Positions 22,310 to 64,000 are shown, counted from the first letter of the stretch. The stretch is 64,000 nt of DNA from Eledone cirrhosa (GCA_964016885.1 OZ024741.1:189472001-189536000); one strand, 5' to 3'. Made by a program: numbers and translations. The notes: generated by a model not told the origin, from the letters alone.

Positions 22310-23910
22310 TCACAACACCTCTCTGTAGACCACATTTTTTGTTCTGCCTTTGGGTGCAAGTATGAATAAGTTCTGCTTGCATCCCACTCTTGAGTATGCG
22401 ACGTATAATTGGCCGTGTGAGAAGCACGGCTGGGCTAAATGCAGGCCTGCTGTTGATAGCGTTTGGCCTTGGGACTTATTGATTGACATCGCGAAGTAAA
22501 GTTTAACGGGGAATTGAAGTCGGCGCAGAGTACAGGGGCATTCCGTACCTGATGGAGTTAATGGTATTCTGGGTATGAAGACGTTTTCTCCAGCGCCGCA
22601 GCCCGTGAGAATTGTGGCTTCAATTACATGCGGCAGGAGGTTTCTTACCACTAACCGTGTTCCGTTGCAGAGACGTGGTGGTTCCAGGTTCCTCAACAGC
22701 ATGACTGGAGTCCCAACTTTGATGCGCAGTTCATGAGGTGGCAGTCCAGAGAGGTCCAAGGAATTGTAGGTACGGAGGTTTCCAGGAATGCGTTGCAGAA
22801 GGTCCTCATTGATTTTTGCAACTGAGACATTTTTGGGAGCCAATATGGCTCTATCACAGAGCCAACTCGTGTTTTTGTAGTTGGTCGCCATATCGGGAAA
22901 GACAGAGGCTGTGAGGTCGTCAACAGTGTCGACAACGGTGTCTACTTGCGAGACTGCCATTTCTCCAACTGCATCTGAAGGTGCAGTGCCGTCACCAACT
23001 GTTAAGAGGTCCTTTGAGAAGTCGGCTGCTGAGTGGTCACCGAGCAGTTGGGCACTCATGTTTGTTGTGAGGGTCAGGATTGTCACTTCCTTCCACAGGG
23101 GAGATGACTTAACGCAAGCCCCCACAGTGTCGGCCCTGGTGGCTTTTGGAACAACTGGAAGAGTTTGTCGAAAATCGCCATACAGCAGTAGAGGTACTCC
23201 CCCCATCGGCCGGTTGCATTCCCTGATGTCTCGTAGGGTCCTGTCTAATGCCTCAAGGGACCCTTTATGGGCCATTGTGCATTCGTCACACACAATTAGG
23301 TGGCATCTTTTCAAGACTTCAGCTTTGTCAGAGTCTTTGGTGATGTTGCAGGTAATTGTGTCATCTGAAGTCGTGTTGAATGGCAGTTTAAATGCGGAAT
23401 GAGCTGTCCTACCTCCAGACAGCAGAGTTGCGGCAATGCCAGAAGCCACAGCCAGGGCGATTCCTTTCTGCTGTCGCAATTTGGCGAGGAGGAGTTTATT
23501 GACGAATGTTTTACCAGTTCCTCCTGGGGCTTCCAAAAAGAAGATACCTCCTCTGCGTTGACGAATGGAAGTGCAAACTGTGTCATACGCCTGCCGTTGG
23601 TCCTGCAACAATTTCGGCTTGTTTTCGTTGATGAACAGTTCGAGGGCGTGGACGTCGTAGGCAGTTTCCTGAATTATGCACGTCGGAAGTTTGTCGGAGC
23701 CCGTTCGTTGACCTTTTGGCAGTCCATAGAATGGAAGGTCATTTCCGCCGGCAGTTAGGATTTTGTCCTCGATGTCAATGAGAGCTTTGTTGAAGAATTC
23801 GCCGCTGAGTCGTACATCGGAATGAGGGAGTAGCAGTTGTCCTTGGTGTATGTAGTCATCGGAAAGGTCCTCTTTGTATTTGTCCCATAAGGATGCAGGG
23901 TCGCTTAACT
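22310..23910 (-). pseudogene. Helitron Pif1-like SF1 helicase domain
   Basis: APGGTGKT, DECTM, GDFRQTLP, RLCNGTRL, INKSQGQT and HGQLYVA. Confidence 0.95.
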
Positions 23911-26900
23911 CAGTGGTCGCCAACATGGGTTCCGCAAAACAAACTCCGGGTTCCTTAAAAAAATAAATATTTACATTACCATTAATATTTTGGGTTTTCT
24001 GAAAAAGGTGCAAAGAAAATGCAAAAGGTGCAATGTATAAATGAACAAGTACTATTGTAGTGTACACAGGTTCCCCACTCCAATTCGTGGAAAACACTAC
24101 TTTCAGTTTCTCACTTGAATTAGCAGAAAAACACTGTTCTGAGATTCGTGGAAATTGAATACTTTCAATTTCATCAATTCTTGGAAAGACATAGTTTTCT
24201 GAATTCTGAGAATTTGACTACTACTAATTGAACTTAGAAATTGACCAATCACGAACAAGTAAATGTTGGTCGATGACAGCATAACTTTAAACTGAAAACT
24301 TCAGTTCAGCGAGGTCTCTCAGCCAAGAGACAGGGTCAGTTCGCTGTTCTCACAACGTAAGTTCAGTAGAATGTTTTCAATAGAGAACACGTTTTATCTG
24401 CTGTCCTCACAAAAGCTTTAAAGTCGTCTAAAGTTTCCTCACTGAGTGAACTCGCTTACTAGTCGTTTTCAACATGCATCCAGTTCCACAGACAATTCTA
24501 AATAAGAACACGTTACATTCTGTTGTACTTTGCACAGAAAATATAACGCCTGTAAAGTTTAGACTACTAACAAAGGTAATTTTGTATTCCATGCATACAC
24601 TATAAGCTTTGCCACACAATTATGTATTCATTTGATGACATCTGCATTCACAATTGAGAAATTACTTTATACAATAAATATATATGTCCACAAACATTTG
24701 ACTAAACTTTATTTGTTCCAATCTAATATATGTTTAACGCAGCCTAAAGCCTTCTTATATTATATCTAACTTTGAGTCAAAATAGATAGAAGATATCTGA
24801 ATTAATTTCCAATACCATCGTCACATCTACACTATCAGCTGATTTGCATTTTTTGCACCTTTTAGTATGGCGGATATTTAAATATATTTACATTACCAAT
24901 AATATTTAATACGACCCTAAAGTAGTATATGCAGGAAGTGCTGGACTCTGAAAAAAATTTCTTCTAGTTAACTGTAGATAAATAACGTTGATATGATGTC
25001 TACTGCAAAGAAGCTGAAGTTAGATACCAGCAGTAAGGTTAGACAGTGGTGTGATGATTATGTTAGATAAGGATTTCAAAAAGCTGACACTAAAAAAGAT
25101 ACACCAGATCAGCCCATGTGTTTGCTATGTTCAAAAGTTCTATCAAATAGCTGTTTAAATCCTGCAAAACTTAAAAGACACATTGATACTAATCACACCA
25201 ATGATAAAAACAAGTCACTGGAATACTTTACTTCGCTGAAAAACAACATAAAAAAATCACAAGCTAATATGTATGACTTGTTTTGTAAAAAGTCAGATAG
25301 AAATAAAGCTTTAACAAGAACATCTTTTGAGATTTCACATTTGATTGGTAAAAACAAGAAACCATTTACATTAGGAGAACAGTTAATTCTGCCAAGTATA
25401 AAAATTGCTACAGAGAATCTTTTTGAAAGCTGCAGTATTAAGGACAAAGAAAAATTAAGCCAGTTACCATTGTCAGCAAATACCGTAAAAAGAAGGATAA
25501 TTGATATTTCTTCTGATATAGAAAATCAGATACTAACTGCACTAAAGAAAAGCACATGTTTTGGTCTGCAAGTAGACGAAACTACGGATATTAATAACAA
25601 GGCTCAATTAATTTGCTATGTACGGTTTGTAGACCTTGATAAAAAAGAATTAGTAGAAGAGTATTTGTTTTGTCTGGCATTAGACATCACAACTAAAGGT
25701 CAAGATATATTCAATAAAATTGAAGAGTATTTTTTAAAAAATGGTGTATCTTGGAGCAAGTTGACTTCAATAACAACAGATGGAGCAGCTGCAATGACTG
25801 GTAAAAATTCTGGTTTGATTGCAAAAATTAAAGAACAGACCCCAAATTGTATTTCAAACCATTGTATGATTCATCGAGAGGTTTTGTGTTAAAAAAATTC
25901 AAAGACAGAAATGCTCAAATATTAAATGACCAGCTGAAAGACATTGTCAAAATTATCAATTTGATCCATGCAAGAGCAAAAAATTCTAGAATGTTTGAAT
26001 CTATTTGTGAATCTTCTGGAAGTAATTATAATAGATTATTATTGAACAACGATGTGCGTTGGCTGTCTTTTGGGGATGCTATGAAGAGAGTTTTTGAACT
26101 GAGAGAAGAAATAATAGTTTTTCTAAAAAAACAGAATGATGAAAGAGCAAGTGTATTAGAAACCAATGAATGGAATGTGCAACTCGCTTATTTAGTAGAC
26201 ATTTTTGGTGAACTGAACAAACTAAATAAGTGACTTCAGGGTAACAATGCAGATATTTTTACTTCAATCAATTTTATTACATATTTTCAATCAAAATTAA
26301 ACATCTTTATAAAAAGAATTGAATCGGACAATTACTTTCAAACCTTGAAATAGAGCTTAAAAAGAGAGAAAATTTTGACTCCAGCAATCTCAAGAAGATT
26401 ATTCTTTCTCATTTAAATGTGCTTTCCACAGGTTTTTCAGATTATTTTGACTTGATGGAAAAATATATTGTTAGCGGAAATTTATGGATAAAAAACCCGT
26501 TCACCGAGATCGAGCAGTTAGTGTCAGAAAATGACGCTGGAAATTGTAAACATTTACTACCTGCCCAATGCTTACATCAGTTGATGGATTTGAATTCAAA
26601 CGAAGACCTGAAAGTAATATTCGAAAGCAGAAAGAAAGAACTATGGATCGACTTATTCTTGATTGGGGAGTTTAATGAAATCAGCTAACTTGCATTGAAG
26701 TATTTGACTTTATTCCCATCTAGCTATTTGTGCGAAAAAGGGTTTTCGCAGTTGGTGGAAATCTGCACAAAGAAGAGGAATAAACTGTCAGCAATTGACG
26801 AGTGTATGAGACTGTCGATTTTCTAAACTCACTGATGAGGCGCAGCAGCAGAAAAGCCATTGTGTTCGATTACATACACACGCATGAAACACTAAAATAA

Positions 26901-27007
26901 ATAAATACTTTATTATTTTTTTTGAAAAGTTTTGTATTGTATAGGTTCCGTGAAGAATTCAAAATATTTAGAGGGTTCCTCGGTTTTAGAAAGGTTGGCG
27001 ACCACTG
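23911..27007 (+). mobile_element. hAT (Buster/Charlie family) DNA transposon
   Basis: 14-bp TIRs CAGTGGTCGCCAAC / GTTGGCGACCACTG. 8-bp TSD GCTTAACT/ACTTAACT with a central TA. Confidence 0.95.
24993..26830 (+). pseudogene. Disrupted hAT transposase (ZBED5/SCAND3-like)
   Basis: BED finger CLLC...LKRHIDTNH, LQVDETTD, TTDGAAAM, HCMIHRE, RWLS and YLCEKGFS; broken by stops and frameshifts. Confidence 0.9.
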
Positions 27008-27015
27008 ACTTAACT

Positions 27016-29978
27016 CACATGTCTGCAGTAGCACCGCAAAGAGTTGCCGAAGAGTTCACGCTGAGCGTATTGTAGCTGCCTCCGCCAATGTTGCATCCCA
27101 CTGAACGCCATCTTCCAGTCGACCCCGTTTAAGGCAGGCTGCGCGGAATGAAGTACAAAGCTCTCCGTCGATTGTTTTCATATCGTCGAAAGATGTCGGT
27201 CCTACCACGTCAAGCAGTAGAAGGCGGAGATAAAAGCATTCCTGTTGGTTAGGATGAATGGTGTACACTCTCCCAAGAGTAGGGGACATTTTAATGTCTG
27301 GATGTCCCTCGACGGGTTGTCCTTTCACCCTTCTTAACCAAATTCTGTTGTCTGTGTTCCATGTGTAGTATGATGGCACCTGAGAGTAGAAGAGGGTCTT
27401 GGCGAAGGGATCGTTTCGGCATAACTTAAAAAATGCCCTAAGTGTGGTGTCCTTGAGTTCCTCTGCTATCTCAGCAGCGGTGGAGGCGGTGAAGTAGACT
27501 CTTTGGTCGTTTTCAAGGTGCACCGCCAACTGTTTGATTGGGGGGTAGTTATGGTGTATTGCAAAGTAGAAGAATCGCCAGAACGCTTCATTGCTGCTGA
27601 TGTATCGGCCGACCTGGTATCGAATTACTTCGTCTCGGTTGTTCTCCATTGTAAGACCAAAGGACGCAGCATCGGACCCCTTATTGATATACTTGCAGAC
27701 GTACTTTATCGATTTGACGGAGTGGCAGTATTCAACGTTAATGTGGGCGTTAAACAATTTAAGCAGAAGTGGGCAGTAGGGTACAATCCACCGGTTGTCG
27801 ACGTTGTGATGTGGTATTTTCGCAACAATTCCTCCGTCCGCTGGCTCCCTGCGGCAGTATAATGGATAACCGTCGCCACCTGTCCAAGTTTCTCGGAGGA
27901 ATGGCCTAGGATACCTCTTCATGCACCTTCTTTCTTTAATGCATGGCGAATTCATATTGAAACCGTTTCCGCATGGCCCATGAACCATGTGAGCAGTGAC
28001 GATGTTGTGGAGTTCTCTGTCCAATTTTGGGTCGGGTATTTCTGCTGAAATGATGCTGTCAACGCTGCTTCCGTTGATTTTCGTTATCAGCCAAATGAGT
28101 AGGTGAGCGTGTGGCAGACCTCTCTTTTGCCACTCAACGGTGTATACGTAACACCTAACATCTCCAAAGGCCTTACCTGATTTTAGGAGTTCAATAAGTT
28201 TTGTCAACTTCAAGTGAAAGACTCGTGCCGTAAGATCGTGTCTGTCTGACGCCCTTTGTCCGGGGAATAATTCCGCTGTAATTTCATTCCACTTAAGGTT
28301 GCATGTTGAAGCGATGAAGAGATCCGGTCTGCCGTAGAGACGCACGTACGTCATAACATCCTCTGTGCGTTCACTCATGTATCGGGGACTCCCAATGAAG
28401 GTCGACGGAAGGATACAATGTTTTCCTAGGTTCTCGGGATTGACGTCATTCCTTACTCCATCCCGTAAGTGAATGTAGCTGTCCGAACGCAGGCGTGCTT
28501 GATTGTTCCTTATGTAGCACAGCCTTTCAGATTCCATCTTTGCGCACGTGTCTACAGCAAGCTGGTTGAAGAGTACTCTTGCACGGTGGAGTTGGTTAAA
28601 GCAGCATTCGCGGACCATGAATCGGTAGGTGTAGAATTGCATGGAGGAAACAGTTTTGTTGCTGTTGCACAAAGGAATTCCAAAGTGGTATCCGTCGTCA
28701 CCTAATGGGAAAAGTAGGGGATATTGGAATGCGTCGTAGGACCTATGCGTCTCGCTGATCCGTTGGAGACTATTGTCCCTACACTGAAGTATGATGTCCC
28801 GCTTGTTGTACTGTTCTCCCTCCATGAAGAAGCACAGCTATTTCATTGCACGTGGGAGTGTTAAAACGTCCGGCGTGGGTGCCTGGTGGTTTCCTGTCAG
28901 CGTCGATTATAACAGCAAAATTTGGCAACGGAGCAGCCTCCAATGCGCATTTAAAACTGCGAATGTAGTTGTTTTCGTGCAGCATTCTCTCGAGTTACAA
29001 CAGAATTTTCATGTCTGTGCCAGGCGAAATTGAAGCGCGTCGTTCCGCTTGGTCCAAATAGTCAGTGACAAAGTATAGCTGTAGGAACTGGGGCTGTCCG
29101 TCTGTCGTGGGCAGTAGCGAACCGATTCTGTGGTCAATTTGTCCTTGAACTTTAAAGGTAGGCATGAAGCCGTCCTCGCGTATGATGTTAGCTCCGAAAG
29201 GGGTCATTTGGAATGCAGCGTTGTATCTCCTGGAATATCGAAGGAAGTGTTCCGACTCCGCTGTGGCACCGGTCAGTAGAGACTTCAAAGGTTGTGGTAG
29301 TTCCTGTAGAAGAGGCAGTTTCACTTTGCCGTCAGAGCAGCACATCCCTGAAGTTTCCCCAGGCCATTTTTTTGCCCGACAATATTGGCAAATGACAGAC
29401 ATGGATCCAATCTGAACGTCTGGCATCAGTGCATAGTTTACTGTTGGGTCATAGTGGAAAGCCTTATGAGACCACTGAGTGCAACTGATCCTCTGTGTGC
29501 CTCGTTAAGCACTCATGCGGAGTGCGTTGGTGTTTAGCCTTTGTAATTGAATTTGCGCAGTCTCTGATGCGCGAACGGAAGCTGTTGAAGCGGCGTCCGT
29601 ACGTTGACGTCTGGAACGCTGCCCTTCGGCAGCACGTGATGCAGCAGTTGAGGCAGCATCTCTTCGTCGTCATCTGTAACGGTATTCTTCGTCCTCACCG
29701 TCACGTGCCACAGCGGTGGAGGCAGCATTTTTGCTTCATCATCGAGAATGTTGTTCATCAGTTTGCGCTGCACGTGCAACTGCAGTTACAAATGCATTTC
29801 CGGAAAGGCGGATGCTCCTCTTTTTTTCTGTCTCGGTTGCCCGGGTAATTGCATTTCGAGGTGAATTTTGTGACAACCGAGTCAATTTTTCTACGGACAA
29901 CTCTGTAGCTCTTCTTCGTTTGGCAGCAGAAGAAGCTTTAGTTTGGCGACTAAGTCGTGGTCTTTTTGGGGGTGGCAC
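27016..29978 (-). pseudogene. Helitron RepHel N-terminal part (Zn-finger and HUH Rep domain)
   Basis: CQYCRAKKWPGETSGMCC, RPDLF, VEWQKRGLPHAH and KYVCKYINKG, spread over ORFs 29739-29978, 28995-29426, 28779-28985 and 27056-28825. Confidence 0.92.
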
Positions 29979-30150: not shown

Positions 30151-30455
30151 GAGACGGAGGCAGTAACCTTTTAAAGAGAGTTGCAGAGGAGATTGAGGGT
30201 AGTGAGAGGACTGAAGCGTGTAAGAGAGAGGGTTATCAAAGTTTGTGTCGCGTTCCTTCAGAGACGGAGGCAGTAACCTTTTAAAGAGAGTTGCAGAGGA
30301 GATTGAGGGTAGTGAGAGGAATGAAGCGTGTAAGAGAGAGGGTTATCAAAGTTTGTGTCGCGTTCCTTCAGAGACGGAGGCAGTAACCTTTTAAAGAGAG
30401 TTGCGGAGGAGATTGAGGGTAGTGAGAGGAATGAAGCGTGTAAGAGAGAGGGTTA
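30151..30455. repeat. ~110-bp tandem repeat (~2.7 copies) in the Helitron 5' region
   Basis: GAGACGGAGGCAGTAACCTTTTAAAGAGAG recurs at 30151, 30261 and 30371. Confidence 0.9.
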
Positions 30456-30831
30456 CAGCATGTATTTAGTTTTATCGATTTTTTTTCATAGAAACAGGAA
30501 AGTTTTGGCAAAAGTAATTACGCGTTGACCTGCCCTGGTAAATTTGGAGCACATTGGGAAAAAAATCATAAAAATCGGTAGAGAATGTGGAAATGCATAA
30601 AAACCATACACACACACACAGACAGACATCTACCGTTTTATATATATAGAGAGATGTGTACATGCGTATAATTACATTTATGTATCAGCTGTGCTAGGGG
30701 GAGGAATAAAATTCTAATTTTATTTATATATATATATGTATGTGTTCCGAAGAGATTGTTTTGGTAAAAACAGGAACAAGCTGGAGAAAGCTCTCAACAT
30801 TCATAGTTTTTAGTTATGATGGAGATTCAGT

Positions 30832-31066
30832 ATAATATCATTAATAAAGATGCTGATATTACATAAATAGTTTATTCATTATAATTATTTCAATGGTTCT
30901 CCCATGCTATCAAGATATAATTCATGCATTTGTTGTTATGAGAATGGTATCCTCAGATGAAATTTGATTTTGTGATATGCCGCCGGCAGGAAAGAACACA
31001 CGTCCTTTTGCTCGTGCGTCCAGCAGACATATGAGTTCCTGAAAGGGTCTCCCAGCAGTCGTGTTT
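30832..31066 (-). mobile_element. Penelope-like element 3' end with hammerhead (30875-30961)
   Basis: Minus-strand translation SKRTCVLSCRRHITKSNFI* resembles the PLE C-terminal NKRSE..SKCRH motif. It is followed by TTCAT-CTGAGGA...GAAA-TAATTA-TA-ATGAA. Confidence 0.65.
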
Positions 31067-31129
31067 ACTGGAGTAAAGTGCTATCCACCTGTCAATTAGC
31101 AAACTCAGGATTCACGCATACCCCATGGA

Positions 31130-33960
31130 ATTGGGGGCCGTAAATCAGCAGAAAGGTAACCCCTTAAGTATGTTGAGTTGATCTGTATCAAACGATAGTC
31201 TATGGGGTTGTAAATCAGCAGAAAGGTAACCCCTCAAGTATGTTGTGTTGATCTGTATCAAACGATAGACTATGGGGTCGTAAATCAGCAGAAAAGTAAC
31301 CCCTCAAGTATGTTGAGTTCATCTGTATCAAACAATAGTCTATGGGGTTGTAAATCAGCAGAAAGGTAACCCCTCAAGTATATTGTGTTGATCTGTATCA
31401 AATGATAGTCTATGGGGTTGTAAATCAGCAGAAAGGTAACCCCTCAAGTATGTTGTGTTGATCTGTATCAAACGATAGTCTATGGGGTCGTAAATCAGCA
31501 GAAAGGTAACCCCTCAAGTATGTTGTGTTGATCTGTATCAAATGATACTCTATGGGGTTGTAAATCAGCAGAAAGGTAACCCCTCAAGTATGTTGTGTTG
31601 ATCTGTATCAAACAATAGTCTATGGGGTTGTAAATTAGCAGAAAGTAACTCCTCAAGTATATTGTGTTGATCTGTATCAAACGATAGTCTATGGGGTTGT
31701 AAATCAGCAGAAAGGTAACCCCTCAAGTATGTTGTGTTGATCTGTATCAAACAATAGTCTATGGGGTTGTAAATCAGCAGAAAGGTAACCACTCAAGTAT
31801 ATTGCGTTGATCTGTATCAAATGATAGTCTATGGGGTTGTAAATCAGCAGAAAGGAAACCACTCAAGTATATTGCGTTGATCTGTATCAAATGATAGTCT
31901 ATGGGGTTGTAAATCAGCAGAAAGGTAACCCCTCAAGTATGTTGTGTTGATCTGTATCAAACAATAGTCTATGGGGTTGTAAATCAGCAGAAAGGTAACC
32001 CCTCAAGTATGTTGTGTTGATCTGTATCAAACGATAGTCTATGGGGTTGTAAATCAGCAGAAAGGTAACACCTCAAGTATATTGTGTTGATCTGTATCAA
32101 ACGATAGTCTATGGGGTTGTAAATCAGCTGAAAGGTAACCCCTCAAGTATATTGTGTTGATCTGTATCAAACGATAGTCTATGGGGTTGTAAATCAGCAG
32201 AAAGGTAACCCCTCAAGTATGTTGTGTTGATCTGTATCAAATGATAGTCTATGGGGTTGTAAATCAGCAGAAAGGTAACCCCTCAAGTATGTTGTGTTGA
32301 TCTGTATCAAACAATAGTCTATGGGGTTATAAATCAGCAGAAAGGTAACCCCTCAAGTATGTTGTGTTGATCTGTATCAAACGATAGTCTATGGGGTTGT
32401 AAATCAGCAGAAAGGTAACTCCTCATGTATATTGTGTTGATCTGTATCAAACGATAGTCTATGGGGTTGTAAATCAGCTGAAAGGTAACCCCTCAAGTAT
32501 ATTGTGTTGATCTGCATCAAATGATAGTCTATGGGGTTGTAAATCAGCAGAAAGGTAACCCCTCAAGTATGTTGTGTTGATCTGTATCAAACGATAGTCT
32601 ATGGGGTTGTAAATCAGCAGAAAGGTAACCCCTCAAGTATATTGTGTTGATCTGTATCAAACGATAGTATATGGGGTTGTAAATCAGCTGAAAGGTAACC
32701 CCTCAAGTATATTGTGTTGATCTGTATCAAACGATAGTCTATGGGGTTGTAAATCAGCAGAAAGGTAACCCCTCAAGTATGTTGTGTTGATCTGTATCAA
32801 ATGATAGTCTATGGGGTTGTAAATCAGCAGAAAGGTAACCCCTCAAGTATGTTGTGTTGATCTGTATCAAACAATAGTCTATGGGGTTGTAAATCAGCAG
32901 AAAGGTAACCCCTCAAGTATGTTGTGTTGATCTGTATCAAACGATAGTCTATGGGGTTGTAAATCAGCAGAAAGGTAACCCCTCAAGTATATTGTGTTGA
33001 TCTGTATCAAACGATAGTCTATGGGGTTGTAAATCAGCTGAAAGGTAACCCCTCAAGTATATTGTGTTGATCTGCATCAAATGATAGTCTATGGGGTTGT
33101 AAATCAGCAGAAAGGTAACCCCTCAAGTATGTGTTGATCTGTATCAAACGATAGTCTATGGGGTTGTAAATCACCAGAAAGGTAACCCCTCAAGTATATT
33201 GTGTTGATCTGCATCAAATGATAGTCTATGGGGTTGTAAATCAGCAGAAAGGTAACCCCTCAAGTATGTTGTGTTGATCTGTATCAAACGATAGTCTATG
33301 GGGTCGTAAATCAGCAGACAGGTAACCCCTCAAGTATGTTGTGTTGATCTGTATCAAATGATAGTCTATGGGGTTGTAAATCAGCAGAAAGGTAACCCCT
33401 CAAGTATATTGTGTTGATCTGCATCAAATGATAGTCTATGGGGTTGTAAATCAGCAGAAAGGTAACCCCTCAAGTATATTGTGTTGATCTGTATCAAACG
33501 ATAGTCTATGGGGTTGTAAATCAGCAGAAAGGTAACCCCTCAAGTATATTGTGTTGATCTGTATCAAACGATAGTCTATGGGGTTGTAAATCAGCAGAAA
33601 GGTAACCCCTCAAGTATGTTGTGTTGATCTGTATCAAACAATAGTGTATGGGGTTGTAAATCAGCAGAAAGGTAACCCCTCAAGTATGTTGTGTTGATCT
33701 GTATCAAACAATAGTGTATGGGGTTGTAAATCAGCAGAAAGGTAAACCCTCAAGTATGTTGTGTTGATCTGTATCAAACGATAGTCTATGGGGTTGTAAA
33801 TCAGCAGAAAGGTAACCCCTCAAGTATATTGTGTTGATCTGTATCAAACGATAGTATATGGGGTTGTAAATTAGCAGAAAGGTAACCCCTCAAGTATGTT
33901 GTGTTGATCTGTATCAAATGATAGTCTATGGGGTTGTAAATCAGCAGAAAAGTAACCCCT
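31130..33960. repeat. 70-bp satellite array, left arm (~40 copies)
   Basis: Unit TAAATCAGCAGAAAGGTAACCCCTCAAGTATGTTGTGTTGATCTGTATCAAACGATAGTCTATGGGGTTG, recurring at 31141, 31211, 31281 and onward. Confidence 0.97.
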
Positions 33961-34224
33961 TGTAGTGGCTGAGATGGTCGCTTGGCAACTAGCAGTTGCC
34001 TCCCCTTAACAACCCTTCAGGGAGCGGGGGCAAAAATACACCCGGACACAGACACAGGTTCACTCACTCTTTTTGGACCACGGACATGAACAGACGTGGA
34101 AAGATCCGCTCCTCAAAATATTGACGTTGTAGGAAATTTACTAAATTATTGCATTAAATAAAATGATTGTTAGACTTGATTGTGCATTTATTTATTCGAC
34201 AAAGAGAAACATCCCTTTTCTTTA
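33961..34224 (+). repeat. 5' LTR (TG...TA)
   Basis: Direct repeat of 39608-39871 with 3 mismatches seen by eye; followed by TTGGCGACCC. Confidence 0.95.
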
Positions 34225-34660
34225 TTGGCGACCCTGACCATAAAGAATGAAAACGCAGCCTATTTGAGTCCGAAATTCTTTTTAACGGCAATGTGGAATG
34301 GCTTAACATTTGGAATGTCCGAATCACTTAGCGTAAGTCCATAAAATTCATTATATTCCATTTGTTATAGCACGCATACAGACAAACACAAAAATACAAC
34401 ACACAAAAAAAAAAAATAAAGGATTTCTCTGGATATAGAACTTTGCTTCCAACATTCTGTGGAAATTACAAATGGAGATATTTCGTTTTCCCGCGTTCAG
34501 CTTGTCTTCTCCAATCCCAGCCATCTGATTGGCTGCATCGTGCCACATGACGGCTTCATCACGGACACATTTTTAAATCAGCCATCTTGGATTTTCTTAC
34601 CATTAATTTTCATAGAAAATGATTTTTTTTATTATTAAAATTTTCTTTAGAATATTTTTT

Positions 34661-35645
34661 TTTAAAGAAAAAAAATTAGCAGTATTTCAAAACGGCTACC
34701 ACCAATTACCAGCAATCAGCAGCAACACCTGGCTAACTATTGACCAACACCAAAAAGTCATCAAATACGTGGCACCATGAGTCAACATCATTGCCGTCCT
34801 TCGCAGGCGACATCAAGTTGTGGTTTGCGCAGCTGGAATGTTTCTTCGAATTGACGAAGACAAAGGAACAGCATAAGCTGAAGGTCCTGATCAATGGCCT
34901 ACCTGTTTCCTTGGCATTCTCGGTGAAGGACGTTGTGACGGATTTAGACGCCGACGTTACCTACGGCTCATTAAAAAAAGAAATCCTTCGCAGAAATACC
35001 AAGTCGGTAGAGAGCCGTTTTCGGGAGTTGTTGGACGATGCTCAAATGGGTGACAGGAAGCCGAGCTCCTATTTGCGACATTTGCGGGAGTTGAACGACT
35101 CCCAGGGGATTGACACCCCCTTCATAAAGCAACTTTTTTTGCGCACTTAGTGGTAGACGTGAGAAAAAAAGTTGCTTTATGAAGGGGGTGTCAATCCCCT
35201 GGGAGTCGCTCAACTCCTGCAAATGTCGCAAATAGGAGCTCGGCTTCCTGTCACCCATTTGAGCATCGTCCAACAACTCCCGAAAACGGCTCTCTACCGA
35301 CTTGGTATTTCTGCGAAGGATTTCTTTTTTTAATGAGCCGTAGGTAACGTCGGCGTCTAAATCCGTCACAACGTCCTTCACCGAGAATGCCAAGGAAACA
35401 GGTAGGCCATTGATCAGGACCTTCAGCTTATGCTGTAACTTTGTCTTCGTCAATTCGAAGAAACATTCCAGCTGCGCAAACCACAACTTGATGTCGCCTG
35501 CGAAGGACGGCAAATGATGTTGACTCATGGTGCCACGTATTTGATGACTTTTTGGTGTTGGTCAATAGTTAGCCAGGTGTTGCTGCTGATTGCTGGTAAT
35601 TGGTGGTAGCCGTTTTGAAATACTGCTAATTTTTTTTCTTTAAAA
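34661..35645. repeat. ~480-bp inverted duplication of the leader and gag N-terminus, with ~25-bp spacer
   Basis: ORFs 34740+ and 34971- encode the same peptide (LPSFAGDIKLWFAQLE...FIKQLF). The arms are 34661-35140 and ~35163-35645. Confidence 0.95.
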
Positions 35646-36001
35646 ATAGTTTAGAGAAGGATTCATTAGAGCAACTTGCCGCGTCCGCGGATAAGATACT
35701 TGAGGTGGACTCGAACAGCAATCAGCATAATTCTTATGTGGCTTCATCTTGCGTCCCTCCAAGCAGTTCTTCTGTGGCCGACGGCAAACGGTTAGAGTTG
35801 ATTGAAGCTCTCACCAAAATGGTAGAAGATTTGACGGTACATCACAGAGAGCCTTCTCAACGTTTGAGGTATCGTTCGCCGCCGTTCTCTATTCATCGCC
35901 AGCACTACAACGCAGGCAACAATAATTCTTCGTTGTGTTGGTATCATGCTAACTTCGGCAGTAGGGCACAACGTTGTCGCACGCCCTGTGATTACAAGTG
36001 A
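34777..36001 (+). pseudogene. gag: Gag, disrupted by the inverted duplication and a 1-bp deletion
   Basis: WFAQLE and KPSSYLRHL in the N-terminal part. The C-terminal part resumes at ~35646 (SLEQLAASADKILE) and ends in CWYHANFGSRAQRCRTPC (Cx2Hx9Cx3C). Confidence 0.85.
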
Positions 36002-36003
36002 TC

Positions 36004-39000
36004 GGGAAACGCAAAGCAGAGCCACTAGGAGCGGCTAGTGAACTCTGGGAAAACCGACCGAACCGCCATCTTTTCGTATACGACCTGCGGTCAAAAAAAT
36101 TTTTCCTTGTCGATACTGGCGCGTCGCTGAGTATTTGGCCAGTCAGTTATCTCAAAAAAAGCCCAGCCGAAGCAGATATAAATCTACGAGCAGTCAACCA
36201 CACGGCCATTCGAACGTATGGGCAAATTTCGCTTCCTCTTCGGTTAAAAAATTTGCGGCGTGATTTGAAGTGGAAGTTTACTATCGCCGACTTGCCATAC
36301 GCCATTTTGGGAGCGGATTTTCTCCACCATTTTTTCCTTGTTGTTGGACATTCGCAGACAACGCCTTGTTGATGCTGAAACAGGCCTTTCTTTCGAGGGT
36401 TCAGAGCCAGACGTCGCCACTGTCAGCTCTTCCTTTTTCTTGGCTGAAGTGGGCAACCAGTATCAAAGCCTGTTACATTCATTCCCTCAGTTGACGCAGG
36501 GAAAGTTACGAATTAATAGCCCTGATCATGCGATTGAACACTTCATATCTACTACAGGTCCACCTGTTTTCTCACGTCCTCGAAGATTGTCTACAGAGAA
36601 GTTGAAAGCTGCACGTCTTGAATTCGACCACATGCTGGAATTGGGAATAATTCGGCGCTCCACAAGTCCTTGGGCATCGCCTCTACATATGGTACCTAGA
36701 TCTTCTGGGGATTGGAGATCGACGGGTTACTACCGACGCTTAAACGCGATTACTGTGCCTGACCGTTATCCAATCCCGCATTTGCAGGATTTTGCATCGT
36801 CATTGCAGGGTTGCAGAATCTTTTCTAAGCTTGATTTGATCCGCGCTTATAATCAAATTCCCGTTAACAAGGAGGATATCCCAAAGACTGCTATTGCCAC
36901 TCCTTTCGGATCATTCGAGTTCCTCACTATGCCTTTCGGCCTTAGAAATGCTGCAAGTACCTTCCAACGATTTATGGATGATATTACTCAGGGCCTGGAT
37001 TTTGTGTACACGTATATCGATGACGTGTTGATTGCTAGTTCTTCTCCTCAGCAGCATTCAAAGCATCTAGATCTCGTATTTCGTCGTTTACAGAGATATA
37101 ATGTTCGAAATAATGCTTCCAAGTGTGTTTTCGGCTCGACTTCACTAACATTTTTAGGCCATCTGATTGACGCCGATGGTATTCGACCTCTTCCTGAGAA
37201 GGTTAAGGCAGTATCGGATTTGCCTCCGCCAAGTTCACTGCGTCAATTGCGTCAATTCCTGGGCCTTGTAAATTTTTATAGGCGATTCGTACCTGGTTGT
37301 TCCAAATTGCTGTTCTCGTTGACAGAGATTTTTAAGGGTTGCCGGCGTAAGAATATGGACATTTCCTTAAATAAAACGCAACTTGATGATTTTAAAAAAG
37401 TGAAAAAGGCGTTAGCGAACGCGTCTTTGCTCGCTCACCCAGTACCCAACGCCGAGCTATCGCTCTGTGTTGATGCTTCGGATAGTGCCGTGGGCGCAGT
37501 CTTACAGCAGAAGTGTGATGGGGTACAGCAACCACTCGAGTTCTTTTCGAGGAAGTTAAAGCCTGCCGAAACTCGCTATAGCACCTTTGGAAGGGAGCTA
37601 TTAGCAATTTATTTATCAGTGAAACATTTTGCTCATGTACTTGAAGGTAGAACATTCACCATTTTCACTGATCATAAACCCTTGACGTTTGCTCTTCGAA
37701 CTAAGGCAGACAAATACTCGACCAGAGAAACGAGACATCTGGACTTCATCTCACAGTTCACGGACGACATTCAACATATTCCGGGTTCTTTGAATACAGC
37801 GGCCGATGCGCTGTCTCGCCTGCCGATCGCATCGATTTCGTCTTCCGAGGAGATAGATTTACATCGAATGGCAGCTGCCCAACCCACTCTCGAATCGTTG
37901 GATGTTACATTGCCAGAGTTTGTACATTGCAAACTGAAATACATTCCGATCTCAACTGCTGACGGACAGATACTGTGTGATGTTTCGTTGGACTCACCAC
38001 GACCTCTAGTCCCAGTGGAACATCGACGAACTGCGTTTCTCGCTTTACATGGCATTTCTCACCCAGGAGTATCAGCCTCAGTAAAACTCATAACAGCCAG
38101 ATTTTTCTGGCCTGGTATGAGACGTGACATTGCTGCTTGGTGTCGTTCCTGTGTCGCTTGCCAACAAGCGAAAGTTCATAGACATGTTAAGGCTCCTCTC
38201 GGAACCTTCACCTGCCCCGATGCAAGATTTCGTCACATTCATGTGGACATCGTCGGCCCGTGGCCGGTTAGTCGTGGTTTTTCGTATCTTTTGACGATTG
38301 TTGACCGTTTTTCGCGTTGGCCTGAAGCCGTCCCTATAACAGATATCACCGCCGAAACCACAGCCGGTACTCTCGTATCTTCGTGGATCGCTCGTTTCGG
38401 TGTACCAACCACCATAACAACGGATCGTGGTCGTCAATTTGAGTCTAACCTCTTCCGAGAGCTAACCCAAATCCTGGGGGCTACTCGAATAAGAACCACG
38501 GCTTACCACCCAGCCTCAAACGGAATGGTGGAAAGATTCCACAGGCAGCTCAAAGTCTCCTTAAGGGCTTCCATGGACTCTTCACGTTGGAGCGAGTACC
38601 TACCCATTGTATTGTTGGGTATTCGGTCGACGGTAAAGGTGGACCTTGGGTTCTCCTCTGCCGAATTAGTTTATGGTACGCCTCTGGCGTTACCGGGGCA
38701 AATGCTGGCCCCTTTTGACCTGACTTCGCAGGACCCCGCTTCCTACGTGTCCCGGCTTCACTCTTATTTCAAGGATCTACCACCGATGGGCACTAGGAAG
38801 CAGACTGTAAAAACTGCCGTCCCAAGGGATATTGCCTTGTGGAGCCATGTGTTCGTTAGAGACGACGCCGTGAGACCCCCTCTTCAACGGCCGTACTCTG
38901 GACCCTATCGTGTGCTTGCTCGCACAGACAAACATTTCACAGTGGACATTCGGGGTTCCAGGGAAACGGTTTCCGTTGATCGTCTCAAACGAGCAAACCT

Positions 39001-39088
39001 GGACAATGACATAATGACACTTGAAACTCAAATGCCCCCCTCTTTTTCTTTGCCACACAGGCCTATTTCTTCCCCCCTCCCACCATAA
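36004..39088 (+). CDS. pol: Pol polyprotein (protease, RT, RNase H, integrase), with one frameshift near 36338
   Basis: [39 protein letters not shown]...[30 protein letters not shown] and the GPY motif. Confidence 0.92.
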
Positions 39089-39607
39089 ACACACAGAACT
39101 ACGACCCGTTCTGGGCGAAGGGTGCATTGGCCCCGTAAGCTATGCTATAAACTAAATTGTATTTTTTATTTTTTTATTTCCTTCCAATTGTTTTTGTTGT
39201 ACATTGCATTTTGTTACTTTTGGTTTCTTGACTGCCTACAGCAGTGTCAATATATTATATTTTGCGTAACATTACGACTGTTGTCAATTCTGACACAGTC
39301 CCTTTTTTTTTAGTGCATTTTTATAACTATGCTACATATGGCATTTTCATTGCCTAGCAAAACATTTTTTTTCTTGTTTATCGCATCTGGGGCCCCTTTA
39401 TTGCGAAGAGTGTTATCTTTTCATGCATTTTGCATCTTTTACTGTACGTTTTTTTTTGTTGTTTTTTTCTCTGTGTTAATGCTTGCAGACATGAACCTAT
39501 TTATTAACTTTTTTTTTTTAATTTGTTGATACATTCTTCTACATTTTGTAAACTACCTTCGCTTCATTGTTAACGATTGTTCGACAAAAAATCTGCTCCG
39601 AGGTGAA

Positions 39608-39871
39608 TGTAGTGGCTGAAATGGTCGCTTGGCAACTAGCAGTTGCCTCCCCTTAACAACCCTTCAGGGAGCGGGGGCAAAAATACACCCGGACACAGCC
39701 ACAGGTTCACTCACTCTTTTTGGACCACGGACATGAACAGACGTGGAAAGATCCGCTCCTCAAAATATTAACGTTGTAGGAAATTTACTAAATTATTGCA
39801 TTAAATAAAATGATTGTTAGACTTGATTGTGCATTTATTTATTCGACAAAGAGAAACATCCCTTTTCTTTA
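39608..39871 (+). repeat. 3' LTR
   Basis: Matches 33961-34224; followed by TSD CCCT and resumption of the satellite in phase. Confidence 0.95.
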
Positions 39872-40754
39872 CCCTCAAGTATATTGTGTTGATCTGTATC
39901 AAACGATAGTCTATGGGGTTGTAAATCAGCAGAAAGGTAACCCCTCAAGTATGTTGAGTTGATCTGCATCAAATGATAGTCTATGGGGTTGTAAATCAGC
40001 AGAAAGGTAACCCCTCAAGTATGTTGAGTTGATCTGCATCAAACGATAGTCTATGGGGTTGTAAATCAGCAGAAAGGTAACCCCTCAAGTATGTTGAGTT
40101 GATCTGCATCAAATGATAGTCTATGGGGTTGTAAATCAGCAGAAAGGTAACCCCTCAAGTATGTTGAGTTGATCTGCATCAAACGATAGTCTATGGGGTT
40201 GTAAATCAGCAGAAAGGTAACCCCTCAAGTATGTTGAGTTGATCTGCATCAAATGATAGTCTATGGGGTTGTAAATCAGCAGAAAGGTAACCCCTCAAGT
40301 ATGTTGAGTTGATCTGCATCAAACGATAGTCTATGGGGTTGTAAATCAGCAGAAAGGTAACCCCTCAAGTATGTTGAGTTGATCTGCATCAAATGATAGT
40401 CTATGGGGTTGTAAATCAGCAGAAAGGTAACCCCTCAAGTATGTTGAGTTGATCTGCATCAAACGATAGTCTATGGGGTTGTAAATCAGCAGAAAGGTAA
40501 CCCCTCAAGTATGTTGAGTTGATCTGCATCAAATGATAGTCTATGGGGTTGTAAATCAGCAGAAAGGTAACCCCTCAAGTATGTTGAGTTGATCTGCATC
40601 AAACGATAGTCTATGGGGTTGTAAATCAGCAGAAAGGTAACCCCTCAAGTATGTTGAGTTGATCTGCATCAAATGATAGTCTATGGGGTTGTAAATCAGC
40701 AGAAAGGTAACCCCTCAAGCATGTTGAGTTGATCTGTATCAAACGATAGTCTAT
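39872..40754. repeat. 70-bp satellite, right arm (~12.5 copies, dimeric)
   Basis: Same unit with fixed GAGTTGATCTGCATC, alternating AAATG/AAACG. Confidence 0.97.
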
Positions 40755-41276
40755 GCATAGCCAGAATCCAGTAGATAGTGGAAGCAATAAACAGAACTCT
40801 GAGGGTGGGTGAGGTATATACTTTGTTGACAGCGACATTCAAAACAACAGCTACAACAATAACAACAACAACAACAACGACAACAATAGCAAACACTGAC
40901 CAACGTCGCCTACACTGGCCACTGCAGTCGTAGTGATAGTAATACCCCACTTACAACAACAACAACAACCATTGCAATAAATGGAACTCTGAGGTAGGGC
41001 AATATACACTCTTGATGCCATCCATCCTCAAGACAACAGCGACAACAACAACAACGGCAACAACAGCAACACCACCCATTGTCCACACTGGTCATCACAG
41101 TAGTAGTGATATTAGTACCCAGCTAATGGCAACGAGTACATCCCTACCCAAGCACCAGGCAGCGGCAACACTAACAACAACAACAACAACAACAGTAATG
41201 AACCCATCACAGTGACGACGGCAACAAAAAAGGCCTGCTGGTGCGGGTCACCGTAAATAACCGTACTAACATAATT

Positions 41277-41461
41277 GTTTCTACTTTTGGCACAAGGCCA
41301 GCAATTACCCAGTGTATTACTGGTACTTTATTTTATCGACCCCGTAAGGATGAAAGGCAAAGTTAACCTCGGCGGGATTTGAACTCAGAATGGCAAGGGC
41401 CGTAACTCTATGCGTCAAAGCATGGCGTCCGACCCTCTACCGATACTGCCAATTCACCGCC
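41277..41461 (-). mobile_element. tRNA-derived SINE (second family, Meta-like central domain)
   Basis: Minus strand: GGCGGTGAATTGGCAGTATCGG (A box), GAGTTCAAATCC (B box), TTTGCCTTTCATCCTTACGGGGTCGATAAAA. A partial copy lies at 43524-43618. Confidence 0.75.
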
Positions 41462-41689
41462 ACTAACATAATAACCATGACAATCAGCGCTTCCACCCTA
41501 TGGCACAAGGCCAGCAACAATGACAGTGCAGAATAATAATTAACCTCAATAACAGTCAGTTGTAACTACATTGGTATTAATACTATCAACGGTGGGAACC
41601 ATGTCCGACAAAAAGGGCTGCTAGACTGTGGAAGTGAGCTGCAAGAAGCGAATATAGGAACAGAAACACATACAGATATAATTCAGGTA

Positions 41690-42015
41690 CACATATGGAG
41701 AACATAGGAACAAATGTAACAAACATTATACATAAATTCTAAAGTAGGTATACATATGGAGAATACGGAACAAGGAACAAGGGATATAAAACACAGACCC
41801 TCGGCTGGGAGACCCTTTCAGGAACTCATATGTCTGCTGGACGCATGAGCAAAAGGACGAGTGTTTTTTCCTGCTGGCGGCATATCACAAAATCAAATTT
41901 CATCTGAGGATGCCGTTCCATTCTCATAACAACAACATATGCATGGGAGAACCGTTGAAATAATTATAATGAATAAACGATTTATGTAACATCAGCATCT
42001 TTATTAATGTTATTA
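41690..42015 (+). mobile_element. Penelope-like 3' end with hammerhead (41899-41973), inverted partner of 30832-31066
   Basis: 41804-42015 is the reverse complement of the left copy. Peptide remnants YIWRIRNK and KRTSVFSCWRH. Core TTCAT-CTGAGGA...GAAA-TAATTA-TA-ATGAA. Confidence 0.65.
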
Positions 42016-42030
42016 TCATATATATATATA

Positions 42031-44952: not shown

Positions 44953-45261
44953 TTAAAGGGAACACAACTGCACAGAATGTTAGCTTGCCAAATCTAGCAG
45001 AGCAATACTGTTATGATACATGACCTCTAAAAAGGGGAAAAACCTCTAGTTGAGAAAAACAACATGTATTGGTGGGTAAAATTCAAAACCTGGAATTTCC
45101 ACCAACAAAAGAACTCAACCAGTTTCAAACATGCATACTCAAGGGCTGATTTGCAATATAAAATCGAACAATCAATATTCAATATATAATCAATATATAA
45201 AAAAAAATAGAAATGTTCCAACTTGCACATGAAGCATTTTAGTCATACTGGGAGTAATAAA

Positions 45262-45445
45262 TGTTTCTACATTTGGCACAAGGCCAGCAATTAACCAGTG
45301 CATTACATGTACTTTATTTTATCGACCCCATAAGGATGTAATGCAAAGTTAACCTCGGCAGAATTTGAACTCAGAACGTAAAGAGCCATAACTCTATGCT
45401 GCAAAGTATGGTGTCTGATGTTCTACAGATACTGCCAATCCACTA
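45262..45445 (-). mobile_element. SINE (same family as 41277), whose 5' head overlaps the first satellite monomer
   Basis: Collinear with 41277-41461 up to GATACTGCCAAT. Confidence 0.75.
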
Positions 45446-48400
45446 TACGAAAGTCACCAATCTCCAGCCACAACCCATTCAATCAATGACAAAATAAGTT
45501 TGCCAGATACTGCCAATCCACTATAAGAAAGTCACCAATCTCCAGCCACAACCCATTGAATCAATGACAAAATAAGTTTGCCAGATACTGCCAATCCACT
45601 ATAAGAAAGTCACCAATCTCCAGCCACAACCCATTCAATCAATGACAAAATAAGTTTGCCAGATACTGCCAATCTACTATAAGAAAGTCACCAATCTCCA
45701 GCCACAACCCATTCAATCAATGACAAAATAAGTTTGCCAGATACTGCCAATCCACTATAAGAAAGTCACCAATCTCCAGCCACAACCCATTCAATCAATG
45801 ACAAAATAAGTTTGCCAGATACTGCCAATCCACTTTACGAAAGTCACCAATCTCCAGCCACAACCCATTCAATCAATGACAAAATAAGTTTGCCAGATAC
45901 TGCCAATCTACTATAAGAAAGTCACCAATCTCCAGCCACAACCCATTCAATCAATGACAAAATAAATTTGCCAGATACTGCCAATCCACTATCGCGAAAG
46001 TCACCAATCTCCAGCCACAACCCATTCAATCAATGACAAAATAAGTTTGCCAGATACTGCCAATCCACTATAAGAAAGTCACCAATCTCCAGCCACAACC
46101 CATTCAATCAATGACAAAATAAGTTTGCCAGATACTGCCAATCCACTATACGAAAGTCACCAATCTCCAGCCACAACCCATTCAATCAATGACAAAATAA
46201 GTTTGCCAGATACTGCCAATCTACTATAAGAAAGTCACCAATCTCCAGCCACAACCCATTCAATCAATGACAAAATAAATTTGCCAGATGCTGCCAATCC
46301 ACTATCGCGAAAGTCACCAATCTCCAGCCACAACCCATTCAATCAATGACAAAATAAGTTTGCCAGATACTGCCAATCCACTATAAGAAAGTCACCAATC
46401 TCCAGCCACAACCCATTCAATCAATGACAAAATAAATTTGCCAGATACTGCCAATCCACTATAAGAAAGTCACCAATCTCCAGCCACAACCCATTCAATC
46501 AATGACAAAATAAGTTTGCCAGATACTGCCAATCCACTATAAGAAAGTCACCAATCTCCAGCCACAACCCATTCAATCAATGACAAAATAAGTTTGCCAG
46601 ATACTGCCAATCCACTATACGAAAGTCACCAATCTCCAGCCACAACCCATTCAATCAATGACAAAATAAGTTTGCCAGATACTGCCAATCCACTATAAGA
46701 AAGTCACCAATCTCCAGTCACAACCCATTCAATCAATGACAAAATAAGTTGGCCAGATACTGCCAATCCACTATAAGAAAGTCACCAATCTCCAGCCACA
46801 ACCCATTCAATCAATGACAAAATAAGTTTGCCAGATACTGCCAATCCACTATAAGAAACTCAGCAATCTCCAGCCACAACCCATTCAATCAATGACAAAA
46901 TAAGTTTGCCAGATACTGCCAATCCACTATACGAAAGTCACCAATCTCCAGCCACAACCCATTGAATCAATGACAAAATAAGTTTGCCAGATACGGCCAA
47001 TCCACTATAAGAAAGTCACCAATCTCCAGCCACAACCCATTCAATCAATGACAAAATAAGTTTGCCAGATACTGCCAATCCACTATAAGAAAGTCACCAA
47101 TCTCCAGCCACAACCCATTCAATCAATGACAAAATAAGTTTGCCAGATACTGCCAATCCACTATAAGAAAGTCACCAATCTCCAGCCACAACCCATTCAA
47201 TCAATGACAAAATAAGTTTGCCAGATACTGTCAATCCACTATAAGAAAGTCACCAATCTCCAGTCACAACCCATTCAATCAATGACAAAATAAGTTTGCC
47301 AGATACTGCCAATCCACTATAAGAAAGTCACCAATCTCCAGCCACAACCCATTCAATCAATGACAAAGTAAGTTTGCCAGATACTGCCAATCCACTATAA
47401 GAAAGTCACCAATCTCCAGCCACAACCCATTCAATCAATGACAAAATAAGTTGGCCAGATACTGCCAATCCACTGTAAGAAAGTCACCAATCTCCAGCCA
47501 CAACCCATTCAATCAATGACAAAATAAGTTTGCCAGATACTGCCAATCCACTATAAGAAAGTCACCAATCTCCAGCCACAACCCATTCAATCAATGACAA
47601 AATAAGTTTGCCAGATACTGCCAATCCACTATAAGAAAGTCACCAATCTCCAGCCACAACCCATTCAATCAATGACAAAATAAGTTGGACAGATACTGCC
47701 AATCCACTATAAGAAAGTCACCAATCTCCAGCCACATCCCATTCAATCAATGACAAAATAAGTTGGCCAGATACTGCCAATCCACTATAAGAAAGTCACC
47801 AATCTCCAGCCACAACCCATTCAATCAATGACAAAATAAGTTTGCCAGATACTGCCAATCCACTATAAGAAACTCACCAATCTCCAGCCACAACCCATTC
47901 AATCAATGACAAAATAAGTTTGCCAGATACTGCCAATCCACTATAAGAAAGTCACCAATCTCCAGCCACAACCCATTCAATCAATGACAAAATAAGTTTG
48001 CCAGATACTGCCAATCCACTATAAGAAAGTCAACAATCTCCAGCCCCAACCCATTCAATCAATGAGAAAATAAGTTGGCCAGATACTGCCAATCCACTAT
48101 AGGAAAGTCACCAATCTCCAGCCACCACCCATTCAATCAATGACAATATAAGTTGACCAGATACTGCCAATCCACTATAAGAAAGTCACCAATCTCCAAC
48201 CACAACCCATTCAATCAATGACAAAATAAGTTTGCCAGATACTGCCAATCCACTGTAAGAAAGTCACCAATCTCCAGCCACAACCCATTCAATCAATGAC
48301 AAAATAAGTTTGCCAGATACTGCCAATCCACTATAAGAAAGTCACGAATCTCCAGCCACAACCCATTCAATCAATGACAATATAAGTTTGCCAGATACTG

Positions 48401-63400: not shown

Positions 63401-64000
63401 CCTCTAGCCACAACCAATTCAATCAATGACAAAATAAGTTTGCCAGATACTGCCAATCCACTATAAGAAAGTCACCAATCTCCAGACACAACCCATTCAA
63501 TCAATGACGAAATAAGTTGGCCAGATACTGCCAATCCACTATAAGAAAGTCACCAATCTCCAGCCACAACCCATTCAATCAATGACAAAATAAGTTTGCC
63601 AGATACTGCCAATCCACTATAAGAAAGTCACCAATCTCCAGCCACAACCAATTCAATCAATGACAAAATGAGTTTGCCAGATACTGCAAATCCACTATAA
63701 GAAAGTCACCAATCTCCAGCCACAACCCATTCAATCAATGACAAAATAAGTTTGCCAGATACTGCCAATCCACTATAAGAAAGTCACCAATCTCCAGCCA
63801 CAACCCATTCAATCAATGACAAAATAAGTTGGCGAGATACTGCCAATCCACTATAAGAAAGTCACCAATCTCCAGCCACAACCCATTCAATCAATGACAA
63901 AACAAGTTTGCCAGATACTGCCAATCCACTGTAAGAAAGTCACCAATCTCCAGCCACAACCCATTCAATCAATGACAAAATAAGTTTGCCAGATACTGCA
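45426..64000. repeat. 78-bp satellite array (>=18.5 kb, ~238 copies, continuing past the window edge)
   Basis: Unit CAGATACTGCCAATCCACTATAAGAAAGTCACCAATCTCCAGCCACAACCCATTCAATCAATGACAAAATAAGTTTGC, period 78 (45426, 45504 and onward). Confidence 0.98.

What the first reader, a model, noticed from the sequence alone, without database searches (positions are those of the whole stretch)
30832..42015. 70-bp satellite enclosed by outward-facing, hammerhead-bearing Penelope-like inverted ends
Seen: ~220-bp inverted repeats at 30832-31066 and 41804-42015 bracket the whole satellite and the Gypsy. Both retain TTCAT-CTGAGGA...GAAA-TAATTA-TA-ATGAA (5-bp stem I, palindromic ATAATTAT helix III) despite indels in the stem II loop, and the array starts only ~70 bp inside the left arm. 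Inference: one PLE-derived composite unit (~5 kb before the Gypsy inserted) in which a satellite amplified. A ribozyme-delimited cassette like this could move or process satellite RNA.
Basis: partly seen in the sequence, partly recalled or inferred. Interest (0 to 1): 0.7.

Follow-up and report, generated by a model that had tools for sequence, protein, structure and literature searches.

The report
Satellite grown inside dead Penelope copy
The two inverted, ribozyme-like ends belong to one old, truncated copy of a Penelope-type jumping gene, and the 70-base satellite is a piece of that gene's own tail that likely multiplied in place afterwards, so this is a satellite born from a transposon, not a mobile ribozyme cassette.

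Summary
The arms are real (86.5% over 230 nt) and both keep the hammerhead motif. Left arm, spacer, one 70-bp unit and the unmentioned 1.05 kb before the right arm are collinear in dispersed copies. Longer copies continue into a GIY-YIG endonuclease and an RT with Hydra-clade motifs. So this is one 5'-truncated Hydra-clade Penelope-like element (3' UTR only, about 1.5 kb) ending in the textbook inverted pseudo-LTR. That layout recurs in 13 of 84 clusters, usually with the tail on one arm only. The head-to-tail 70-bp junction exists only here and in one dimer elsewhere, so the array grew locally; a Gypsy then split it. The ribozymes sit on opposite strands, so no single RNA would be cut twice. 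One extra: two sister copies grew their own arrays (30 kb, 2.6 kb) from other 3' UTR segments. A 93-bp repeat junction is shared by three insertions with unrelated flanks, so short seeds probably travelled with the element. Arrays are not enriched over background. The scan noted similar PLE-end satellites and an inverted insertion on other DNA of this genome. Interest 0.25.

The parts
30743..30831 (-). One-sided 'tail' extension of the element's 3' end, running into a (TA)n target
   Evidence: Matches the tail in other copies; absent from the right arm; outer limit approximate
30832..31056 (-). 3' terminal arm (pLTR end) of a Hydra-clade Penelope-like element
30875..30961 (-). Minimal type I hammerhead motif; predicted cut between 30880 and 30879; two stem II pairs lost
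   Evidence: activity untested
31057..31133 (-). 3' UTR spacer between the arm and the 70-bp segment, same spacing in dispersed copies
31134..33960 (+). Left block of the 70-bp array (about 40 units, mean pairwise difference 4.5%); the unit is a single-copy segment of the PLE 3' UTR
33961..39871 (+). Gypsy-type LTR retrotransposon inserted into one unit; LTRs 33961-34224 and 39608-39871 (261/264 identical), TSD CCCT
39872..40755 (+). Right block of the array (12.6 units, 0.8% pairwise difference, alternating 140-bp dimer)
40757..41803 (-). Rest of the PLE 3' UTR up to the 5' truncation point, about 110 bp short of the endonuclease stop codon
41276..41461 (-). Later insertion of an abundant 190-bp SINE-like repeat, flanked by an 11-bp duplication (SINE label recalled from its B-box-like motif, not from a call)
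41804..42016 (+). Inverted, 5'-truncated copy of the arm (inverted pLTR), abutting the truncation point, no tail, ending in (TA)n
41899..41973 (+). Second minimal hammerhead motif; predicted cut after 41968; about 20-bp deletion and 5-bp insertion in stem II/loop
   Evidence: activity untested

Best explanation
This is one 5'-truncated copy of a Hydra-clade Penelope-like retrotransposon whose two outward-facing hammerhead arms likely arose in a single insertion, and one 70-bp segment of its 3' UTR then likely amplified in place into a private 53-unit array that a Gypsy element later split. Shown: collinearity with dispersed copies, continuation into endonuclease and RT in longer copies, the recurrent inverted arm, the one-sided tail, the locus-private array and the Gypsy TSD inside a unit. 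Inferred: (1) the PLE protein inserted about 1.5 kb into a (TA)n tract, copying the RNA 3' end onto both ends of the break, which gave the inverted arm; (2) a SINE inserted; (3) a tandem duplication, made here or already in the source RNA, expanded by slippage or unequal exchange; (4) the Gypsy inserted, at about one fifth to one third of the arms' divergence; (5) the right block re-homogenised as 140-bp dimers afterwards. The hammerheads are decaying relics with no role in the array.
For: Arm, spacer, single unit and downstream UTR are collinear in 41 of 42 clusters that hold the unit (maps). Copies run on into an endonuclease ORF and an RT. The 441-aa RT has 24 homologues at E<=1e-10; of 5 scanned, 2 hit RVT_1 and 1 hits GIY-YIG weakly. 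Hydra motifs in 37 loci chosen on the RT-EN linker: CxCx5C 11, CxxC-E 20, CxH 24, DKT 8, RWK 3 (definitions from PMC8557442). An inverted arm sits at the 5' truncation in 13 of 84 clusters with a 3' arm, and a direct second arm in 4. The tail lies on exactly one arm in 13 of 17 other two-armed loci, on neither in 4 and on both in 0; random pairing expects 46% (P=0.010). The window has the same one-sided tail. The head-to-tail junction gives 52-53 genome matches, all here except one dimer on C28. Arms differ at 12/205 sites against 3/264 for the LTRs.
Against: The tree of 51 arms is star-like and does not join the two arms as sisters. They share only three common variants; their distance is in the lowest 0.9% of 1275 pairs, but many of the copies were picked by likeness to the right arm. 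No empty-site allele was seen (could not bridge the locus). Pfam did not recognise the family's own RT or endonuclease. The C28 dimer shares the exact junction, which the 'made here' version does not explain. Array length rests on one assembly.
Confidence: 0.88

Rival explanations
1. Seed-and-grow refinement: the first 70-bp duplication arose in a source element, was retrotransposed as a dimer to at least two sites, and expanded only here. The element disperses short seeds, not arrays.
For: The C28 copy has the same junction and the same first-unit C>T variant. A complex 93-bp junction made of UTR and SINE sequence occurs at three insertions (27, 2 and 3 junctions) with different 5' ends, 3' ends and non-collinear flanks. 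The flanks of C28 and the window are unrelated.
Against: Both C28 units share a private variant that the window lacks. The UTR tree puts C28 with other copies, not with the window. Ectopic conversion or a recurrent slippage site would give the same picture.
Confidence: 0.4
2. One reading: a ribozyme-delimited unit that moves the satellite or processes satellite RNA.
For: Both core motifs are intact. Core sites carry fewer changes than other non-CpG sites (3.1% vs 6.2%), which points to selection while the family was mobile.
Against: No second array exists. The hammerheads lie on opposite strands, so one RNA gets at most one cut, and its two arms would likely pair with each other. Minimal PLE hammerheads were inactive as monomers (PMC4209133), and cleavage was not needed for insertion in vitro (PMC11167929). 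The ribozyme fold is 5-6 kcal/mol less stable than the best fold in both arms. The left stem II is damaged, and 16 of 51 arms are equally intact.
Confidence: 0.03
3. Two independent PLE ends happen to flank the array.
For: The family is abundant: 558 matches to the ribozyme 3' half at <=1 mismatch and 1772 first-look candidates. The arms are not resolved as sisters.
Against: The left arm is not independent of the array at all. The right arm abuts the truncation point; the chance within 100 bp is 3e-5, or 3e-4 at 20,000 copies. The one-sided tail fits a single event.
Confidence: 0.05

Closest known systems
Hydra-clade Penelope-like elements (Craig et al. 2021, PMC8557442; Hydra section read whole, other passages seen)
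   Same: C-terminal GIY-YIG endonuclease, CxCx5C linker, RWK and DKT motifs, CxxC and CxH around the conserved E/N, hammerhead, (TA)n targets, inverted 5'-truncated copy and one-sided tail
   Different: About 3.6-4.3 kb between direct arms against 'generally <3 kb'; 3' UTR about 1.4 kb and low-complexity; tail about 90-100 bp against 30-40 bp
[quoted passage not shown]
   Same: 5-bp helix I, long helix II, palindromic short helix III; that paper already reports dual motifs on opposite strands 100-700 bp apart
   Different: The consensus lacks G10.1-C11.1 and has U.U at the base of stem II, as described for an axolotl hammerhead (PMC7229834, passages); the spacing here was stretched to 11 kb by later events
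Satellites derived from retrotransposon 3' UTRs: Ogre/PisTR-A, HeT-A/18HT, L1/cetacean satellite, CR1/HinfI (review PMC9659126, passages)
   Same: A UTR segment becomes a tandem array; short internal arrays expand (also PMC12628747, passages)
   Different: The donor is a PLE ('Penelope' occurs 0 times in either review); the arrays stay single-locus and inside their parent copy
Non-LTR retrozymes (PMC7229834, passages; bioRxiv 10.64898/2026.07.22.740005, part 1 of 5 read)
   Same: PLE-related tandem DNA near type I hammerheads
   Different: Their units each carry a ribozyme in the same orientation; the 70-bp unit has none

Membership tests
Penelope-like element (EN+) | RT followed by C-terminal GIY-YIG endonuclease in the family | tested here: met
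   ORF pieces in longer copies; homologues; Pfam hits weak, family's own pieces not recognised. The window copy itself has lost the ORF.
Penelope-like element (EN+) | Direct or inverted pLTR from partial tandem insertion, frequent 5' truncation | tested here: met
   13 inverted and 4 direct of 84 clusters
Penelope-like element (EN+) | Tail on one end only | tested here: met
   Window plus 13 of 17 other two-armed loci
Penelope-like element (EN+) | Hammerhead motif in the pLTR | tested here: met
   Motif in the consensus and 35 of 51 cores intact; no Rfam hit
Hydra clade | CxCx5C linker, RWK, DKT, CxxC and CxH motifs | tested here: met
   11, 3, 8, 20 and 24 of 37 decayed loci
Hydra clade | Insertion into (TA)n | tested here: met
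   Both window ends; many copies
Hydra clade | Absence of the CCHH motif | not tested
   No alignment to reference endonucleases was made
Hydra clade | Placement in the Hydra clade on an RT tree | not tested
   No labelled reference PLE proteins were in hand
Neptune/Nematis clades | CX2-5CxxC linker | tested here: not met
   The linker reads CxCx5C; my first label 'Neptune-like' was dropped
Non-LTR retrozyme | A hammerhead in each tandem unit, same orientation | tested here: not met
   The 70-bp consensus has no CTGAnGA; the two motifs lie outside the array on opposite strands
Active hammerhead ribozyme | Self-cleavage | not testable with these tools
   The constrained fold is 5-6 kcal/mol above the best fold in both arms
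TE-derived satellite | Unit homologous to a single-copy internal TE segment, junction absent from the parent | tested here: met

The most novel reading that the evidence does not exclude
The long 3' UTR of this Hydra-clade PLE acts as a satellite nursery: short tandem duplications arise in source elements, are scattered by retrotransposition as 2-4-unit seeds, and a few then grow in place into 2.6-30 kb single-locus arrays still framed by their parent element. That would give dated natural replicates of satellite birth from a PLE.
Probability: 0.35. Interest if true: 0.45.

Novelty: new member of a known kind. Interest (0 to 1): 0.25.

Why it matters
The inverted ribozyme-bearing ends are the standard scar of Penelope-like insertion, so the striking geometry needs no new mechanism. 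What is useful is a clean record of satellite birth. The ancestral single-copy state survives in dozens of sister copies, the parent element frames the array, and nested insertions order the events. Two sister copies repeat the experiment with other segments. I found no paper describing arrays from a PLE 3' UTR (searches; listings only), but the same is well known for LINE and LTR donors.

Tried and rejected
Rfam at E<=1: no hammerhead among 124 matches. My regex hammerhead scans missed the family's own motif because of non-greedy matching, so they say nothing; column-wise tests replaced them. Pfam on the family's RT and endonuclease pieces gave nothing significant. Trees of arms (51 sequences) and of the UTR (36 of 45 rows kept after a coverage and identity filter) were star-like and resolved neither arm sisterhood nor a window-C28 link. 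Expression: no RNA holder listed. Enrichment of arrays in the PLE was not shown: 0 arrays in 127 kb of PLE against 7 in 592 kb of flank in 73 loci (the C9 and C12 array loci were left out of that set). Adding those two back gives 2 observed against 0.7-1.9 expected, P 0.15-0.57. A fixed inner start for inverted arms was not seen; the starts vary widely. The label 'Neptune' was rejected after reading the Hydra definition. Supplements of PMC8557442 (Hydra consensus sequences) were not opened and may already hold this family.

Full report
Observation. The two arms are real: 30832-31056 on the minus strand and 41804-42016 on the plus strand, 86.5% over 230 columns, and the only two copies in the window. 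Rfam reports no hammerhead in the window.

What the arms belong to. A search of the 3.0-Gb genome with the arm gave 1772 first-look candidates (40 scored), and a 26-nt piece of the ribozyme matches 558 places at up to one mismatch. Many arm hits lay next to hits of the 70-bp unit. Mapping showed arm, spacer, one unit and the 1.05-kb stretch in the same order in dispersed copies. Among 111 clusters in 863 kb of fetched DNA, 42 hold the unit and 41 of these carry the arm on the same strand. Beyond the point where the window copy stops, other copies continue into an endonuclease reading frame and then an RT. The RT has 24 homologues, two of them labelled from cephalopods, so the host is probably a cephalopod (inference). 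Weak RVT_1 and GIY-YIG hits appear in 3 of 5 homologues scanned. The motifs CxCx5C, RWK, DKT, CxxC and CxH and the (TA)n targets match the published Hydra clade (PMC8557442). The window copy is therefore the 3' UTR of a 5'-truncated Hydra-clade PLE on the minus strand.

Why there are two arms. PMC8557442 describes an inverted 5'-truncated copy beside the 5' end and a tail on one end only. PMC4209133 reports opposite-strand hammerhead pairs 100-700 bp apart. Here 13 of 84 clusters with a 3' arm have an inverted arm at the truncation point and 4 have a direct second arm (clusters can be split by later insertions, so this is a lower bound). In 17 other two-armed loci, picked by hand (one single-armed locus dropped), the tail is on exactly one arm in 13, neither in 4 and both in 0. 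With 30 of 85 arms tailed, random pairing expects 46% (P=0.010). The window fits: tail left, none right, no DNA between body and inverted arm, (TA)n on both sides. The chance of an unrelated arm within 100 bp is 3e-5, or 3e-4 at 20,000 copies. Against this, the arm tree is star-like and does not pair the two arms.

The satellite. The head-to-tail junction occurs 52 times at one mismatch and 53 times with a looser pattern; all are at this locus except one dimer on C28. An internal 28-mer matches 108 places; of the 100 listed, 53 are in this array and the rest are single apart from the C28 dimer and one inverted pair. The array is thus private. Removing it, the Gypsy and the 190-bp SINE-like insert leaves about 1.5 kb. 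Order of events: the arms differ at 12 of 205 sites (7 of 189 outside CpG) and the LTRs at 3 of 264, with TSD CCCT inside a unit. The right block is a near-perfect 140-bp dimer array (0.8% against 4.5% on the left), so turnover went on after the Gypsy arrived.

The ribozymes. The consensus has a 5-bp stem I, a stem II of 8 pairs with a C.C mismatch and U.U at its base, and the palindromic helix III. A U.U base is described for an axolotl hammerhead (PMC7229834). Core sites carry half the changes of other sites (19/612 against 457/7388), consistent with selection during the mobile phase. Retention in the window is ordinary (16 of 51 arms fully intact), and the left arm has lost two stem II pairs. 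The ribozyme fold is 5-6 kcal/mol above the best fold in both arms. Minimal PLE hammerheads showed no monomer activity, and cleavage was dispensable for insertion in vitro. Because the motifs are on opposite strands, a transcript across the locus has one sense ribozyme at most; it cannot be excised or circularised as retrozyme units are (inference from geometry).

What goes beyond the finding. Two sister copies hold their own arrays from other UTR segments. On C9 there is about 30 kb of 75/82-bp units inside an otherwise collinear copy (344 junction matches, the 100 listed all on C9). On C12 there are about 28 units of 93 bp. The 93-bp junction mixes UTR and SINE sequence and occurs at three insertions (27, 2 and 3 junctions) with different ends and non-collinear flanks, which suggests a source element carried 3-4 units. 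The C28 dimer shares the window's junction and a first-unit variant, but both its units carry a variant the window lacks, and the tree does not join the two copies; this is unresolved. Arrays are common in this genome anyway: 7 in 592 kb of flank against 0 in 127 kb of PLE in 73 loci, and 2 observed against 0.7-1.9 expected once C9 and C12 are added. No enrichment is shown.

Comparison and verdict. Satellites from retrotransposon 3' UTRs are known (PMC9659126, PMC12628747; passages), though neither review names Penelope, and my searches (listings only) showed no PLE case. Earlier notes of this scan describe an inverted PLE-type insertion with satellite and a satellite born from a PLE end on other DNA of this genome (unchecked). 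The finding is a real, well-preserved example of two known processes stacked at one locus: a new member of a known kind, interest 0.25.

Noticed in passing
G000:C9:10667025-10698270 (L110, L119-L121, L062): A sister PLE copy holds about 30 kb of 75/82-bp units grown from another 3' UTR segment, with the element collinear on both sides
   Followed up: partly
G000:C12:12906200-12908740, C12:14822570-14822700, C893:34865-35080: A chimeric UTR/SINE 93-bp repeat shared by three insertions with unrelated flanks (27, 2 and 3 junctions)
   Followed up: partly
window 45426-64000 and on through L130: A 78-bp satellite of at least 28 kb whose unit begins with the last 17 bp of the 190-bp SINE-like repeat at 45257-45443
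   Followed up: partly
window 34659-35646: A near-perfect foldback (about 485-bp arms, 99-100%, 23-bp loop) in the Gypsy gag region; real rearrangement or assembly artefact
   Followed up: no
window 22310-28837 (-), with 110-bp repeats at 30151-30455: Helitron-type Rep and PIF1 helicase frames just left of the element
   Followed up: no
L011, L013, L019, L021, L022, L025; window 41276-41461: The 190-bp SINE-like repeat often sits at the AT-rich 3' end or in the UTR of this PLE and shares about 17 bp with the UTR
   Followed up: no
L129 (C4:168.47 Mb) and L126 (C1:374.35 Mb): Frames of 403 and 273 aa resembling the C-terminal parts of other PLE families
   Followed up: no
window 33961-34224 and 39608-39871: The Gypsy LTRs end in TA rather than the usual CA (usual form recalled)
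   Followed up: no
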